Counted from the stretch's first letter, positions 5,611 to 19,873 are shown. The stretch: DNA of 64,000 bases from Bacteroidota bacterium (GCA_023432985.1 JAEZEQ010000065.1:12-64011), one strand, 5' to 3'. Notes: generated by a model from the sequence alone, not told the origin. Made by a program: numbers and translations.

Positions 5611-5672
5611 ACAAAAATTATACTCTCACTTTTTGATAGGGAAATGAGAGTGGGGTAGTTTTACTTTGTGTT
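5611..5672. repeat. Copy 1 of a ~65-bp direct repeat with an internal inverted repeat (ACTCTCA-N16-TGAGAGT), in the divergent promoter region between the WYL regulator and the C10 peptidase gene
   Basis: ACAAAAAT...CTCTCACTTTTTGATAGGGAAATGAGAGTGG...TTTACTTTGT is repeated at 19804-19873 with about 85% identity over 65 bp, including 31 identical consecutive nt. Confidence 0.8.
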
Positions 5673-5746
5673 TTGTAGAAATACAAGAAATTTGTCTAAG
5701 AATGAGTATATTGAGGGCATAAATTAACCAACAAATCAGTAAGAAT

Positions 5747-8341
5747 ATGAAAAAAGAATTTTTATTTGTCGTATTGCTGGCGTTGTTCAGCGCAATGACG
5801 TATGCGAAACATGTTGATGAACTTACAGCAAAACAAGTAGGCCAATCGTTTTTAACACATTCAGCAAAAACTTTCAAAAGTTCGATTAAGCTTAACTTGG
5901 TTTATAAGACTAGTTCAGCCAATAATCCACTAAGTACAAATTTACAGCCGCATACATACTTTTATGTGTTCAATGATGGAGCCAGTGGTTTCGTGATTGT
6001 GGCTGGAGATGATAATGTTACTCCAATTTTGGGATATTCTTATGAAAGTAGTTTTGACCATCAAAATATCCCTCAAAATGTACAAAAATGGCTTGAAGGG
6101 TATAAAAGCCAAATTCGTTATGTTATCGAGAACAATATTGTCGCTACTGAAGAAATTCAACAAGAATGGACAAGCTATGTTAGTGGTGTAGCTCCAGATA
6201 TTGAAAAAGCCAGTGTCAATCCGCTGATGACAACAAAATGGAATCAATCACCTTACTATAATGCTCTTTGTCCGAGCGGAACTGTAACAGGTTGTGTAGC
6301 TACGGCTATGGCGCAAATTATGAAATACTGGAATTATCCTGTAAAAGGTTCGGGTTTTCATTCTTATAACCACCCAAACTATGGTACTCTTTCCGCAAAC
6401 TTTGGTAGTACAACATATCAATGGGGTTCTATGCCTAATACCGTTAATAGCTCTAACAACGCAGTTGCTACATTAATGTATCAAGTCGGTGTAAGCGTTG
6501 ATATGAATTACGGACCTGCCTCAACAGGTGGTAGTGGAGCTTTTGTTATTTCAGCACAAAGCCCTGTTCAACATTGTTCAGAATATGCTTTAAAAACTTA
6601 TTTCGGTTACAAAAACACTTTGCAAGGCGTTCAAAGAAGCAACTACGGTCAAACTCAATGGTTAAATTTACTAAAAACAGAACTTAATGCAAGCAGACCT
6701 ATTTTATACGCTGGTTTTGGCACGGGTGGAGGGCACGCATTTGTATGTGACGGTTACGACAACAATAATTACTTTCATTTTAATTGGGGCTGGGGAGGCT
6801 CTTATGACGGATATTTTCAAATTAACGCATTAAATCCAAGTGGAACAGGAACAGGTGGCGGTAGTGGTGGATATAATAGTGGACACCAAGCTGTAATAGG
6901 CATTGAGCCACCAACAGGAGGAGGGTCACAGGCTTATGACTTACAGTTGTATTCAAATATTAATATGCCTACTACCCAAGTTTGGTTTACTAACGCTTTC
7001 AGTTTGAATGTGGATATCGTTAACTTTGGAGCAGGCAATTTTTCTGGTCAAATTGGAGCAGCCATTTTTGACCAAAATTTCAACTTTGTAAGTTGGATGG
7101 AAGTGAAATCAAATATGACATTAGGTTCAAATCAGCATTACACTAATGGTCTTACTTTTAATAATGCAGGGTCAGCGGCTTTTGTTCCTGGGACATATTA
7201 TGTTGCTCTTTATTACAAAACAACAACAACAAATTGGACTATTATTGACAACGGGAATTATAATAATTTGAAACAATTTCAAATCATTTATTCATCCAAT
7301 ATTGAAACAAATTCGGCATTTACCATAACCAACAATGGTGGCAAACTGATACAAGGTAGTTCTGCTACGGTAAATGTTGATGTGTTAAATACCGGAAGTA
7401 GCACTTTTATTGGGCAATATCGTATCAGTCTGTCTAATTTAAATGGAACATTTGCTCAAAGCATTCAAATTCTAAACGAAAATAATGGACTTCCTAGTGG
7501 ATATCATTACACTGGAGGTAATAATTTTACAGGGAATATAACTGTTGCTCCGGGGACATATCTTATGGAAGTTGCATACAAAGCACAAGGTTCATCAAAC
7601 TGGTATTATGCAGGTAGTACAAGCTATTCAAATCCAGTTTATGTAGTCGTTGAAGCACCAGGCTTATCACCTGATCAATATGAAGTGAACAATACATTTG
7701 GAACAGCATACACATTACCGATTACTTTCTCCGGTAGTACAGCGATTAAAAACACAATTGGTTCAAATTTCCATTTAGGAACAGATAATGATTACTACAA
7801 AATTAACCTGCCAACTGGTTATAATTATACAATAACTGCAAGAATTCGAGATTCCTATAATAGCGGAAACGGCAATACATATACTGTGGATGCTTTGTTT
7901 TCCTATTCAAAAAATGGAGGGGTTACTTGGTCAGAAGCGTATGATGATGTTATGCCGGGGAATATTTCTCTATTAAATGGAGGAACTGTTTATTTCCGAG
8001 TGGCACCTTATTTTTCTGGAGAAACAGGAACTTATCTACTTGATATGACGATAAACAGAGCTTCAACCGTTGGCATTGATGAATTAACAGATAATTCTGA
8101 ATTAATCAAAGTTTATCCAAATCCTTCAACAGATTTTGTAAATGTTGATTTAAGTAATTTTTCAGGAAAGGTAAATTTTATTAATGTAGTAGGAATTAAC
8201 GGACACCAAATCAGTTCTACAAAAGTCTTGGGAGAAAAAGTTTTAAAAATTCCACTAAACGGGCTTTCTAGCGGAGTATACTTAATTCAAATATTGGCAG
8301 CGCAAGAGATGTTAACTAAGACAATAATTGTAAAGCAATGA
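5747..8341 (+). CDS. Peptidase C10 (streptopain/SpeB/PrtT-like) family cysteine protease with N-terminal Spi-type propeptide, pre-peptidase-type C-terminal domains and a T9SS C-terminal sorting domain
   Basis: Signal peptide. Propeptide-like N-terminus (YFYVFNDGASGFVIVAGDDNVTPILGYS). Catalytic Cys context QSPYYNALCPSGTVTGCVATAMAQIMKYW. Catalytic His context GGGHAFVCDGY. C-terminal KVYPNPSTDFVNVDLS...IVKQ is a Por/T9SS sorting domain. Confidence 0.85.
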   Translation: MKKEFLFVVLLALFSAMTYAKHVDELTAKQVGQSFLTHSAKTFKSSIKLNLVYKTSSANNPLSTNLQPHTYFYVFNDGASGFVIVAGDDNVTPILGYSYESSFDHQNIPQNVQKWLEGYKSQIRYVIENNIVATEEIQQEWTSYVSGVAPDIEKASVNPLMTTKWNQSPYYNALCPSGTVTGCVATAMAQIMKYWNYPVKGSGFHSYNHPNYGTLSANFGSTTYQWGSMPNTVNSSNNAVATLMYQVGVSVDMNYGPASTGGSGAFVISAQSPVQHCSEYALKTYFGYKNTLQGVQRSNYGQTQWLNLLKTELNASRPILYAGFGTGGGHAFVCDGYDNNNYFHFNWGWGGSYDGYFQINALNPSGTGTGGGSGGYNSGHQAVIGIEPPTGGGSQAYDLQLYSNINMPTTQVWFTNAFSLNVDIVNFGAGNFSGQIGAAIFDQNFNFVSWMEVKSNMTLGSNQHYTNGLTFNNAGSAAFVPGTYYVALYYKTTTTNWTIIDNGNYNNLKQFQIIYSSNIETNSAFTITNNGGKLIQGSSATVNVDVLNTGSSTFIGQYRISLSNLNGTFAQSIQILNENNGLPSGYHYTGGNNFTGNITVAPGTYLMEVAYKAQGSSNWYYAGSTSYSNPVYVVVEAPGLSPDQYEVNNTFGTAYTLPITFSGSTAIKNTIGSNFHLGTDNDYYKINLPTGYNYTITARIRDSYNSGNGNTYTVDALFSYSKNGGVTWSEAYDDVMPGNISLLNGGTVYFRVAPYFSGETGTYLLDMTINRASTVGIDELTDNSELIKVYPNPSTDFVNVDLSNFSGKVNFINVVGINGHQISSTKVLGEKVLKIPLNGLSSGVYLIQILAAQEMLTKTIIVKQ

Positions 8342-8847
8342 GAGTATTAAATTTTTTAATTTGTTTTGCTTTTGTTGGCTGTAATTCAAGCAGCAAAGTG
8401 ATAAATACAAACAAGGAAGGAGTAACCTTTGTACCGCAATACACACCAGGGCCGCCAGCCTTAGTTTATAAGACAAAGAAGGATTACTACAATCTTGTTC
8501 CTGTTTTGCTTTCCGACGACAAAACAGAAGTTATAGCATACCCTCACTCAAATGATTTAAAGACAGGAAGCAGTTATCTGCTTCCTACTTCTTTGAATAA
8601 TGGTTATTTGCTTGACAATAGAGGAATTGGTAAAAATGTAGCATTTTTAAAACTCACATACCAAGAATATGCAGAACTAAAAGAAGCCCCCACTGTAGAA
8701 GAACTTTATACATATATAATAGACATTGAACCACTAAAAGAACTTTTCGACTGTGGTAACAAGGCAGCATTTACAAATATTGAAGAACAACTTAACAGTA
8801 TAATTGACAAGAATAAATTACCTCAAACGTGCAAGATTATACTATAA
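8338..8847 (+). CDS. Lipoprotein, translationally coupled to the C10 peptidase; candidate cognate staphostatin-like inhibitor/chaperone
   Basis: ATGA stop/start overlap with the peptidase gene. Lipobox FVGCNSS. 169 aa. Function is inferred from context only. Confidence 0.55.
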   Translation: MRVLNFLICFAFVGCNSSSKVINTNKEGVTFVPQYTPGPPALVYKTKKDYYNLVPVLLSDDKTEVIAYPHSNDLKTGSSYLLPTSLNNGYLLDNRGIGKNVAFLKLTYQEYAELKEAPTVEELYTYIIDIEPLKELFDCGNKAAFTNIEEQLNSIIDKNKLPQTCKIIL

Positions 8848-19600: not shown

Positions 19601-19645
19601 AAAATAATGCAAAAAGACTTTTTAAGATTTAACGCAAACAAATAA
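16637..19645 (+). CDS. hsdR: Type I restriction enzyme endonuclease/translocase subunit HsdR
   Basis: N-terminal PD-(D/E)xK nuclease (DLVVFINGLPIITFELK). SF2 helicase Walker A (HSAGSGKSNS). DEAH box (IIIDEAHSSQ). 1002 aa. Confidence 0.92.
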   Translation: MKTDTTEKGLEAHITQHLCLVNAFEERHFSNYNRVDCVDEDLLFNFLQATQEMEVIKLQTIHGSNYRSKVLYRLNNQIKTFGIIEVLRKGITDNNIKLKLFFDKPVSNLNEKDLALYNQNIFSVTRQVHYSTQNENSLDLVVFINGLPIITFELKNELTKQTVKDAIKQYKTSRDPREELFRLGRCMVHFAVDSEQIWMATHLKGENTYFLPFNKGYNNGAGNPPNPNGIKSDYLWKDILTKDRLTNIIQNYVQLFEEETEKILRDGKVKKEKVKKLIFPRYHQIDAVDKLLSNAKENGAGKRYLIQHSAGSGKSNSISWLAHQLVGLFDKNNENTVFDTVIVVTDRKVLDAQIRNNIKQFEQVKGVVEAITEGSKQLKTALEEGKKIIITTIQKFPYIVNEIGELPGNKFAIIIDEAHSSQSGNTAGKLNETLAKDFEKVQVDDDEFVFVDKDQYDELTSEDLVVDIVKGRKMLTNASYFAFTATPKNKTLELFGEKYNDNGKEKFRAFHLYSMKQAIEENFILDVLQNYTTYQSYYALLKKIEDDPAYDKNKAQKKLKIFVESHTHAIAKKTALIIDHFMDNVIRKAKINGLAKAMVVTSSRRNAVKYKKAFDQYLAETGNPYKAIVAFSGEIDGQTEAALNHFSSAAIPDEFKKSEYRFLIVANKYQTGFDQPLLHTMYVDKKLGGVNAVQTLSRLNRTTAGKKDTFVLDFANDADEIKKSFDPFFETTILGEATDPNKLFDLQSSLDAFQVYTPEQVQEFSQKMVTNVPVDQLHSILDAAAEVFRTSLTEEQQDDFRAKCKTYVRLYVFLAQIVPFVNPYLERLYLFLNHLQNKLGKQRDEDLAQGILDNIDMDSYRLQKEGEFNIQLQQGDELKPIPTDMRGGATEPEMEYLSNIVKAFNDRFGTQFTNEDKVKKMTEDLMADVAQDAEFANAFKHSDEQNAKITFEEVLKRKLIDHIETNFEVFKEFNDNKEFRDFFAGTMFKIMQKDFLRFNANK

Positions 19646-19803
19646 TGCCAATGCTACAGTCTCTCTATTGCAAGTATTATGATGTTTTTCTTGTAAGCAA
19701 AATGCTCGACGAAAGCACAAATCTATTCATCAGGCTATAAACCGATAAAAATTTCTACTGTTGTAGATCTACTTTCATTTTCACACAATCCATTTTCATT
19801 TTT

Positions 19804-19873
19804 ACAAAAATCCCCCTCCCTCACTCTCACTTTTTGATAGGGAAATGAGAGTGGAGAGTATTTACTTTGTATT
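19804..19873. repeat. Copy 2 of the ~65-bp direct repeat with internal inverted repeat (CACTCTCA-N16-TGAGAGTG), downstream of hsdR
   Basis: Same orientation and about 85% identity to 5611-5672; 14.19 kb between the copies. Confidence 0.8.

What the first reader, a model, noticed from the sequence alone, without database searches (positions are those of the whole stretch)
5611..19873. AT-rich ~14.2 kb accessory block bounded by two ~65-bp direct repeats that each contain an 8-bp inverted repeat
The sequence ACAAAAAT-(n8-10)-CTCTCACTTTTTGATAGGGAAATGAGAGTGG-(n)-TTTACTTTGT occurs at 5611-5672 and again at 19804-19873, in the same orientation and with a 31-nt perfect core. Everything between the copies (C10 peptidase, lipoprotein, orphan ORF, the full hsd operon and inserted genes) is visibly AT-richer than the flanks (core genes are about 45-50% GC by eye). 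Each copy contains the palindrome (C)ACTCTCA-N16-TGAGAGT(G). I see two non-exclusive readings. The copies could be att-like duplications marking the borders of a horizontally acquired defence island, although no integrase is present in the window. Alternatively they could be paired operator sites for the adjacent WYL regulator.
Basis: seen in the sequence. Interest (0 to 1): 0.7.

Follow-up and report, generated by a model that had tools for sequence, protein, structure and literature searches.

The report
Duplicated palindrome brackets swappable defence-gene slot
The two repeats are real and mark both edges of a slot next to a WYL regulator gene, where related strains carry different anti-phage systems or nothing; the repeat is probably the regulator's binding site, which makes this a good but not unprecedented example of a defence-gene hotspot.

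Summary
A 32-nt perfect direct repeat lies at 5622-5653 and 19823-19854. Its core is a 30-nt palindrome with 10-nt arms and a 10-nt spacer, flanked by TACAAAAAT and TTTACTTTGT. It occurs exactly twice in the window.

Related strains settle what the repeats delimit:
- Two contigs (L087, L088) have the empty site, WYL<-one copy->DUF2341.
- Other strains with the same flanks (about 97% identical) carry different cargo: Cas12a-Cas4-Cas1-Cas2 plus a CRISPR array, a DRT UG39 reverse transcriptase, other type I RM variants, and a NACHT-like gene.
- The window keeps one orphan Cas12a CRISPR repeat (19733-19768), and the C10 peptidase gene uses the cas12a leader up to ATGAAA. The present block therefore replaced a CRISPR-Cas12a locus and is a mosaic, not one acquired unit.

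The core is invariant in all 15 copies, while adjacent bases vary. It is the only palindrome upstream of the WYL gene, whose product has a DriD/BrxR/CapW-like fold.

Best reading: a duplicated promoter-operator segment brackets a defence hotspot, and recombination between the copies removes the cargo. I found no integrase. WYL binding and the recombination mechanism are untested. This is a new member of known kinds and moderately interesting.

The parts
4650..5576 (-). WYL-domain transcription regulator gene (308 aa). It is present in every strain, whether the slot is occupied or empty.
   Evidence: Pfam WYL and WCX. PADLOC WYL. AF2 model with Foldseek top hits DriD, PafBC, BrxR and CapW. Close homologs are only its own 90% cluster plus one protein at 59% identity.
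5610..5618 (.). Outer motif TACAAAAAT, copy 1. Read on the minus strand it overlaps AATTTTTG, a relaxed match to the Bacteroidota -7 box facing the WYL gene.
   Evidence: The promoter role is inferred.
5622..5651 (+). Core copy 1: the 30-nt palindrome ACTCTCACTT-TTTGATAGGG-AAATGAGAGT. Identity with copy 2 runs on to 5653. It lies 45 nt upstream of the WYL ATG and 95 nt upstream of the C10 ATG.
   Evidence: Identical in all 15 copies seen.
5652..5707 (+). Left-end module shared by all occupied variants. It contains TTTACTTTGT (5660-5669), 8 nt after the core.
   Evidence: Alignment A2. BLAST break points at 5707.
5708..5752 (+). Leader plus ATGAAA. It is shared between the window (C10 peptidase) and L096 (cas12a); the two diverge right after codon 2.
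   Evidence: L096 7510-8798 matches window 5752-4464 at 97.8%.
5747..8341 (+). C10 peptidase with a Spi-inhibitor prodomain and a T9SS C-terminal sorting domain; first cargo gene.
8338..8847 (+). 169-aa lipoprotein that overlaps the C10 stop codon.
   Evidence: lipobox FVGC. No Pfam match.
9014..9712 (+). DUF6994 gene. It also precedes hsd genes in variant L094 (89% DNA identity).
10041..19645 (+). Type I RM operon with inserted genes: hsdM (10041-11828), NYN/HEC-09 (11948-12568), hsdS (12559-13830), small ORF (13832-14077), S1-domain protein of 850 aa (14074-16626), hsdR (16637-19645).
   Evidence: PADLOC HEC-09, E = 1e-92.
19733..19768 (+). Orphan Cas12a-type CRISPR repeat GGCTATAAACCGATAAAAATTTCTACTGTTGTAGAT. 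It has 1 mismatch to the repeat of the array (23 copies in view) in L096 and is a relic of the replaced CRISPR-Cas locus.
19803..19811 (.). Outer motif TACAAAAAT, copy 2, on the island side. It is deleted in L086 and L093.
19812..19822 (+). CCCCCTCCCTC, an island-side segment directly left of core copy 2. Three different cargo types share it (window, L086, L093).
19823..19852 (+). Core copy 2. Identity with copy 1 runs on to 19854. TTTACTTTGT follows at 19861-19870, again 8 nt after the core. The core lies 186 nt upstream of the DUF2341 ATG.
20039..21646 (+). DUF2341/DUF4082 protein with a T9SS sorting domain. It is the first conserved gene to the right, and the divergent neighbour of the WYL gene in empty-site strains.

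Best explanation
Shown: the two repeats are two copies of a roughly 62-bp piece of the WYL-DUF2341 intergenic region (TACAAAAAT, the 30-bp palindromic core, TTTACTTTGT). They bracket a strain-variable slot for defence genes. Strains with an empty slot have one copy. Strains with an occupied slot have one copy at each border and carry different cargo: Cas12a CRISPR, type I RM variants, DRT UG39, a NACHT-like gene, and the C10 peptidase. The window's cargo overwrote an earlier Cas12a CRISPR locus.

Inferred: the core is the binding site of the adjacent WYL regulator and sits between two divergent promoters. When the first module entered, the target segment was duplicated, so the first cargo gene and DUF2341 each kept a regulated promoter. 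Selection for binding keeps the 30 bp identical while the rest of the duplication has drifted. Recombination between the two cores deletes the cargo and gives the empty site. Recombination in the conserved end modules swaps cargo.
For: - Empty sites with one copy: L087 and L088.
- At least five cargo types share flanks that are about 97% identical and break exactly at the repeat or the end modules.
- An orphan CRISPR repeat and a shared cas12a leader show the earlier cargo.
- Both left-flank haplotypes (TTAT and ATCT) occur with empty and with occupied slots, so gain or loss has recurred.
- The core is 0/30 variable in 15 copies. The flanks vary at 5/45, 4/56 and 15/186 sites, and the variable sites abut the core.
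- The arms to the right of the two copies keep residual similarity over 60 nt (z = 4.3; 0 of 2000 shuffles reach it). This is as expected for an old, longer duplication.
- The core is the only inverted repeat upstream of the WYL gene.
- The WYL protein has WYL and WCX domains and a DriD/BrxR/CapW-like fold.
- Such regulators bind palindromes in their own promoters, and BrxR has two boxes in one defence island (PMC9122601, PMC10853764).
- No integrase in the window.
Against: - No binding data exist, and no WYL orthologs from other species could be retrieved for footprinting.
- The 10-nt spacer is longer than the 5-7 nt of the BrxR and DriD sites.
- No exact Bacteroidota -7 box (TAnnTTTG) lies beside the core, only relaxed matches.
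- A 30-bp identity is short for RecA recombination, so a dedicated recombinase cannot be excluded.
- The perfect identity of the core could come from the recombination mechanism rather than from selection.
- Only about 70 kb of this genome was visible, so the genome-wide copy number is unknown.
Confidence: 0.55

Rival explanations
1. The core is a dedicated site-specific recombination site: inverted recombinase-binding arms around an asymmetric spacer, as in lox or dif. A recombinase encoded elsewhere in the genome acts on it, so defence modules integrate and excise as circles, in the manner of Xer-dependent elements or dif modules.
For: - The pattern is attL/attR/attB-like: B-left-core-P-right, P-left-core-B-right, and B-left-core-B-right at the empty site.
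- The identity ends sharply at the core.
- Different cargo types share the island-side end modules (CCCCCTCCCTC, the 55-nt left module).
- Read as 11-8-11 (my reading of the sequence), the core has the layout of tyrosine-recombinase core sites (recalled, not checked in a paper here).
- Gain or loss has recurred.
Against: - No recombinase in the window or in any cargo fragment seen.
- The core does not resemble the dif sequences I recall (not tested).
- The island-side and chromosome-side right arms are still similar, which site-specific integration does not require.
- Cargo break points also lie outside the core, at 5707, 5752, 8966 and inside the CRISPR repeat. Much of the exchange is therefore not core-mediated.
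- No copy in IMG/VR, plasmid or phage collections.
Confidence: 0.2
2. The core is a regulatory site for a factor other than the WYL protein, for example another repressor or activator or an alternative sigma factor. The duplication simply copies that promoter.
For: The core and TTTACTTTGT lie upstream of a plus-strand gene in both copies, with identical spacing. The 10-10-10 geometry does not match the WYL operators read here.
Against: The WYL gene is the only regulator that always sits beside the core, in empty and occupied strains alike. A T9SS-specific motif is excluded, because the left copy drives cas12a in L096.
Confidence: 0.12
3. The element is a generic dispersed repeat (REP or MITE-like) that happens to lie at both ends of the block.
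For: Short-k Logan contigs break at the core, as at any multi-copy sequence.
Against: There are only two copies in the 64-kb window, and none in the extra flanking sequence of L001. The 22-nt centre has zero exact hits in the GTDB species genomes, the JGI metagenomes and IMG/VR. The two-copy pattern is fully explained by the empty-site comparison.
Confidence: 0.04
4. The repeat acts as a structured RNA or ssDNA hairpin, such as a leader, attenuator or terminator.
For: The palindrome can form a 7-10 bp stem.
Against: The fold is weak (-4.4 kcal/mol for the core) and the two extended elements are not significant (z = -1.1 and -1.9). There is no T-tract and no terminator-like site around copy 1. 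No Rfam family matches. If TTACTTTG is the -7 box, the core is not transcribed.
Confidence: 0.03

Closest known systems
BrxR-family WYL regulators and their R-BOX operators in defence islands (E. fergusonii pEFER, Acinetobacter BREX); PMC9122601, PMC9122589
   Same: An HTH-WYL-WCX regulator sits at the edge of a mosaic defence island. An imperfect 10-11-bp inverted repeat lies in its own promoter region. pEFER has two boxes within one island.
   Different: The spacer here is 10 nt, not 5. The second copy lies at the far border, in front of a non-defence gene. The two copies delimit the variable region, and one copy remains when the island is absent. The protein is at most 30% identical to any homolog outside its own lineage and 8-16% identical to the solved WYL structures in the fold alignment. 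Binding is untested.
DriD (Caulobacter), a WYL activator that binds a 7-7-7 palindrome in its own and its regulon's promoters; PMC10853764
   Same: Best structural match to the window protein. It binds a palindromic site at several promoters, including its own.
   Different: DriD controls DNA-damage genes, and its motif CGAC-N7-GTCG is unrelated to this core and shorter.
[quoted passage not shown]
   Same: A type I R, M and S set in an insert under 20 kb, with no mobility genes. Direct repeats longer than 30 bp align with a single copy in the empty genome. The H. influenzae type I case has 46-bp repeats and extra inserted genes.
   Different: Here the same duplication also flanks non-RM cargo (Cas12a, DRT), so it predates the RM genes. 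Only the palindromic 30 bp stays perfect.
Defence hotspots between conserved genes, such as the P2/P4 hotspots (PMC9122126) and allelic RM substitution at the E. coli hsd locus
   Same: The flanks are the same and the defence cargo differs between strains of one lineage.
   Different: The slot is chromosomal, is anchored by a resident WYL regulator, and is bracketed by a duplicated palindrome.
Xer-dependent integrative elements and dif modules
   Same: Cargo with no recombinase of its own, flanked by direct copies of a roughly 30-bp site with inverted arms.
   Different: The core is not dif-like, the site shows no sign of being a replication terminus, and no Xer involvement is shown. This comparison rests on recalled knowledge.

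Membership tests
Strain-variable defence hotspot | Same flanking genes, different cargo or none, in closely related genomes | tested here: met
   Flanks are 96.7-98.7% identical. Cargo is C10 plus type I RM (window, L005), Cas12a CRISPR (L096), 69-aa/DUF6994/hsdR (L094, L098), hsdS/248-aa/NACHT-like (L093), DRT UG39 (L086), or empty (L087, L088)..
Strain-variable defence hotspot | Cargo dominated by defence systems | tested here: met
   Type I RM, HEC-09 (1e-92), RT_UG39 (1e-164), Cas12a/Cas4/Cas1/Cas2. The C10 peptidase and its lipoprotein are exceptions.
att-bounded integrative island (site-specific integration) | Direct repeats at both borders equal one copy at the empty site | tested here: met
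att-bounded integrative island (site-specific integration) | Integrase or recombinase in or next to the island | tested here: not met
   No recombinase domain in any window ORF scanned or in any cargo fragment. Other cargo variants were seen only in part.
att-bounded integrative island (site-specific integration) | Integration at a tRNA or tmRNA gene or at the 3' end of a conserved gene | tested here: not met
   The site is intergenic, in a divergent promoter region. The only tRNA is at 42105.
att-bounded integrative island (site-specific integration) | Excised circular form with an attP junction | not testable with these tools
   This needs raw reads of the occupied samples.
[quoted passage not shown] | R and M genes inside, insert under 20 kb, duplication over 30 bp that aligns with the target, no mobility genes | tested here: met
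   hsdM/S/R are present. The copies are 14,201 nt apart, start to start. The repeat is 32 nt perfect and 51 nt at 88%. It aligns to the single copy in L087 and L088.
[quoted passage not shown] | The duplication was created by the insertion of the RM unit | tested here: not met
   The same duplication flanks Cas12a and DRT cargo, and a CRISPR relic lies inside the window's block.
Operator of a BrxR/CapW/DriD-type WYL regulator | Regulator with wHTH-WYL-WCX architecture | tested here: met
   Pfam WYL and WCX. Full-length Foldseek matches to DriD, PafBC, BrxR and CapW. The model is only moderate (pLDDT 69).
Operator of a BrxR/CapW/DriD-type WYL regulator | Palindrome in the regulator's own promoter region | tested here: met
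   It is the only inverted repeat in the 170-nt upstream region, 45 nt from the ATG.
Operator of a BrxR/CapW/DriD-type WYL regulator | Arms of 7-11 bp with a 5-7-bp spacer | tested here: not met
   The arms are 10 nt (9/10), but the spacer is 10 nt.
Operator of a BrxR/CapW/DriD-type WYL regulator | Specific binding and regulation by the protein | not testable with these tools
   EMSA, footprinting or reporter assays are needed.
Operator of a BrxR/CapW/DriD-type WYL regulator | Site conserved with the regulator across species | tested here: inconclusive
   The only ortholog, P0148 (59%), lies on a Logan contig that I could not fetch. There are no relatives in JGI metagenomes.
REP / MITE dispersed repeat | Many copies at unrelated intergenic sites | tested here: inconclusive
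   Two copies in the 64-kb window and none in the extra sequence of L001. Zero exact hits in three public collections.
Integron-like cassette array | Integrase next to the attachment site, and several cassettes each ending in a folded site | tested here: not met
   The neighbouring gene is the WYL regulator. There are only two copies of the site and none between cargo genes.

The most novel reading that the evidence does not exclude
The 30-bp palindrome serves both as the WYL operator and as the crossover site of a recombinase encoded elsewhere. The locus would then be an integrase-less docking platform, resembling an integron: whole defence modules (CRISPR-Cas12a, RM, DRT) are plugged in behind a ready-made, infection-responsive promoter, and the downstream gene automatically keeps its own copy.
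Probability: 0.12. Interest if true: 0.75.

Novelty: new member of a known kind. Interest (0 to 1): 0.5.

Why it matters
Defence hotspots and WYL regulators of defence islands are both known. How a resident regulator stays wired to cargo that keeps changing is not. Here the putative operator-promoter segment is itself the border of the variable slot and is duplicated at the far side. That would explain two things at once: how any incoming module comes under the same control, and how the module can be lost cleanly. The locus also gives a within-species series (empty, Cas12a, RM, DRT) that makes this testable. It is an uncultured Bacteroidota lineage, so the practical impact is modest.

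Tried and rejected
- Exact scans for the 22-nt centre of the core in GTDB species genomes, JGI metagenomes and IMG/VR gave 0 hits each.
- BLASTN of the element against plasmids and phages found nothing.
- The second GTDB scan, with the neighbouring deoxyhypusine-synthase-like protein, returned 80 loci at 83-91% identity but with no synteny. 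The protein is too conserved, so this scan was wasted.
- A JGI scan with a WYL alignment found no relatives.
- A PDB sequence search with the WYL protein found nothing significant.
- Rfam found only a tRNA.
- Idea rejected: a promoter motif shared by T9SS cargo genes. In the window both copies precede T9SS substrates, but in L096 the same left copy precedes cas12a.
- Idea rejected: hairpin RNA or terminator. The fold is weak and there is no T-tract.
- Idea rejected: the 138-aa gene downstream of the WYL gene as an excisionase or partner. It is a small hydrophobic protein with thousands of homologs at about 60% identity across Bacteroidota, so it is a core gene.
- L096 spacers have no meaningful match in any sequence held.
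- Exact look-ups of the window's own DUF2341, thioredoxin-like and CHU_C proteins found nothing on record. The 90% cluster members gave access instead.

Full report
**1. Observation.**
The sequence ACTCTCACTTTTTGATAGGGAAATGAGAGTGG occurs perfectly at 5622-5653 and 19823-19854, on the same strand. It occurs nowhere else in the window at up to 3 mismatches, against 0 matches in 100 shuffles. The similarity extends to 51 nt at 88%.

TACAAAAAT lies to the left of both copies (5610-5618 and 19803-19811), but 3 nt from the core in copy 1 and 11 nt in copy 2. TTTACTTTGT lies to the right of both copies (5660-5669 and 19861-19870), 8 nt after the core in each.

The first 30 nt form a palindrome with 10-nt arms (9/10 complementary) and a 10-nt spacer. 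It is the only inverted repeat in the 170-nt spacer between the WYL gene and the C10 gene.

The block between the copies has 36.2% GC; the flanks have 41.7% and 41.8%.

**2. Genes.**
- Left flank: a small membrane protein (4189-4605) and a WYL plus WCX regulator (4650-5576), both on the minus strand.
- Block: C10 peptidase with a T9SS sorting domain, a lipoprotein, DUF6994, hsdM, a NYN nuclease (PADLOC HEC-09, 1e-92), hsdS, a small ORF, an 850-aa S1-domain protein, and hsdR.
- Right flank: a DUF2341/DUF4082 protein with a T9SS sorting domain.

None of the larger ORFs elsewhere in the window is a recombinase. The only tRNA is at 42105.

**3. Source.**
The window is identical to ENA contig ERZ27269047 k141_137876 over the 15.6 kb that could be compared. 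It comes from an uncultured Bacteroidota. The nearest homologs of the DUF2341 protein are only about 43% identical and include Fluviicola.

Short-k Logan contigs from other samples stop inside the core on both flanks. One Logan contig of 14,229 bp is exactly the block, from core to core. This is what a two-copy repeat longer than k produces.

**4. Empty site.**
Members of the 90% clusters of the WYL and DUF2341 proteins gave access to other strains. L087 (SRR24555986) and L088 (SRR11970118) have the WYL gene and DUF2341 as divergent neighbours, 261 nt apart, with one copy between them:

TACAAAAAT-TAT/TCT-core-AGAGAGTATTTACTTTGTATTCC...

Its left side matches window copy 1 and its right side matches window copy 2.

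**5. Variable cargo.**
The flanks are 96.7-98.7% identical across these contigs. What lies between them differs:
- L096: cas12a-cas4-cas1-cas2 and a CRISPR array, with 23 repeats in view.
- L094 and L098: a 69-aa gene, then DUF6994 (89% identical to the window's copy). In L094 an hsdR N-terminus follows.
- L093: hsdS, a 248-aa gene and a 766-aa NACHT-like gene at the right end.
- L086: a DRT reverse transcriptase, RT_UG39, E = 1e-164, at the right end.

All occupied variants share the 56 nt after the left core (5652-5707). The window and L096 share the whole leader up to ATGAAA (5752), so the C10 ORF starts exactly where cas12a starts. On the right, all three visible right ends share CCCCCTCCCTC directly before the core.

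**6. A relic shows the history.**
The window contains one copy of the L096 CRISPR repeat, with one mismatch, at 19733-19768. That is 54 nt before core copy 2. L086 and L093 keep only its first 11 nt, fused to CCCTCCCTC.

The earlier state of the occupied locus was therefore:

WYL <- core -> cas12a ... array - core -> DUF2341

The C10/RM block replaced everything between cas12a codon 2 and the last repeat. The duplication is older than the present cargo, and the block is a mosaic rather than one acquired unit.

**7. What keeps the core?**
- The core is invariant at all 30 positions in 15 copies (both positions, about ten samples).
- The flanks vary at 5/45, 4/56 and 15/186 positions, and several variable sites touch the core.
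- The sequences to the right of the two copies are only about 60% alike, but that is more than chance (z = 4.3; 0 of 2000 shuffles reach it).
- The island-side left arm in the window still has TACAAAAAT.

Together this looks like an old duplication of at least 62 nt that has decayed everywhere except the palindrome.

Both left-flank haplotypes (TTAT and ATCT) occur with empty and with occupied slots, so gain or loss has happened more than once.

**8. Mechanism.**
The WYL protein has WYL and WCX domains. Its model (pLDDT 69) matches DriD, PafBC, BrxR and CapW over its full length.

Regulators of this family bind palindromes in their own promoters. BrxR binds 11-5-11 and 10-5-10 sites and has two boxes in one defence island. 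DriD binds a 7-7-7 site in its own promoter and in the promoters of its regulon (PMC9122601, PMC10853764).

The core lies 45 nt from the WYL start codon. It sits between two relaxed matches to the Bacteroidota -7 box that face outward: AATTTTTG on the minus strand and TTACTTTG on the plus strand. I therefore favour an operator in a divergent promoter, duplicated so that the first cargo gene and DUF2341 each have one copy. This step is inference. The spacer is longer than in the known sites and no exact -7 consensus is present.

Deletion by recombination between the cores explains the empty sites. Whether that recombination is homologous or site-specific is open.

**9. Rivals.**
- A dedicated recombination site used by a recombinase encoded elsewhere fits the attL/attR/attB pattern and the symmetry of the core. 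It lacks a recombinase, and many cargo break points lie outside the core.
- A generic dispersed repeat is unlikely. There are two copies in the 64-kb window, none in the extra sequence of L001, and none in three public collections.
- A structured RNA is unlikely.
- A T9SS-specific promoter motif is excluded by L096.

**10. Comparison and verdict.**
This is a defence hotspot of the known kind. It resembles both BrxR-type regulated islands and the 'insertion with long target duplication' class of RM loci (PMC2853133).

The particular feature is that the presumed operator is itself the duplicated border of the slot. Interest is moderate.

Noticed in passing
window 19733-19768: A single orphan Cas12a-type CRISPR repeat (one mismatch to the L096 array repeat) sits between the hsdR stop codon and core copy 2. 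It is a relic of a replaced type V-A CRISPR-Cas locus.
   Followed up: yes
window 5708-5752; L096 7510-7560: The C10 peptidase ORF and the cas12a ORF of another strain share the same leader and the first two codons (ATGAAA), then diverge at once. The cargo swap point is therefore at the start codon.
   Followed up: yes
window 19853-19854: The window's right copy has GG after the core, like the left copies. Every other right copy and both empty sites have AG. This makes the identity 32 nt instead of 30 and could be a gene-conversion tract or a single SNP.
   Followed up: partly
window 11948-12568 and 14074-16626: The type I RM operon carries two embedded genes: a NYN nuclease that matches PADLOC HEC-09 (1e-92), and an 850-aa protein whose only recognisable domain is S1 RNA-binding.
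   Followed up: partly
window 9014-9712; L094 550-1257: A DUF6994 gene precedes the hsd genes in two different cargo variants (89% DNA identity). It may be an accessory gene of type I RM systems.
   Followed up: partly
window 4189-4605: The 138-aa gene downstream of the WYL gene has 51% GC in a roughly 41% GC genome. It encodes a small hydrophobic protein with thousands of homologs at about 60% identity across Bacteroidota and no Pfam family.
   Followed up: partly
L093 1026-3326: A 766-aa protein at the right end of another cargo variant has weak NACHT/AAA and pentapeptide-repeat matches and no PADLOC hit. It may be a STAND-type defence NTPase.
   Followed up: partly
L002 1-34 and L089-L091 starts (SRR235931xx samples): In these samples the left-flank contig runs 4 nt past the core into AGAG, which is the chromosome-side (empty-site) type, and then stops. 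The right-flank contigs start inside the core. This may reflect a mix of empty and occupied strains in one sample.
   Followed up: no
window 25518-27283: Seven tandem copies of a roughly 237-nt unit lie inside the 1436-aa CHU_C/Ig-like T9SS protein gene. Related strains have a 1389-aa version.
   Followed up: no
window 21690-22031: A small HxlR-type regulator gene lies convergent with DUF2341. It is conserved in all strains seen.
   Followed up: no
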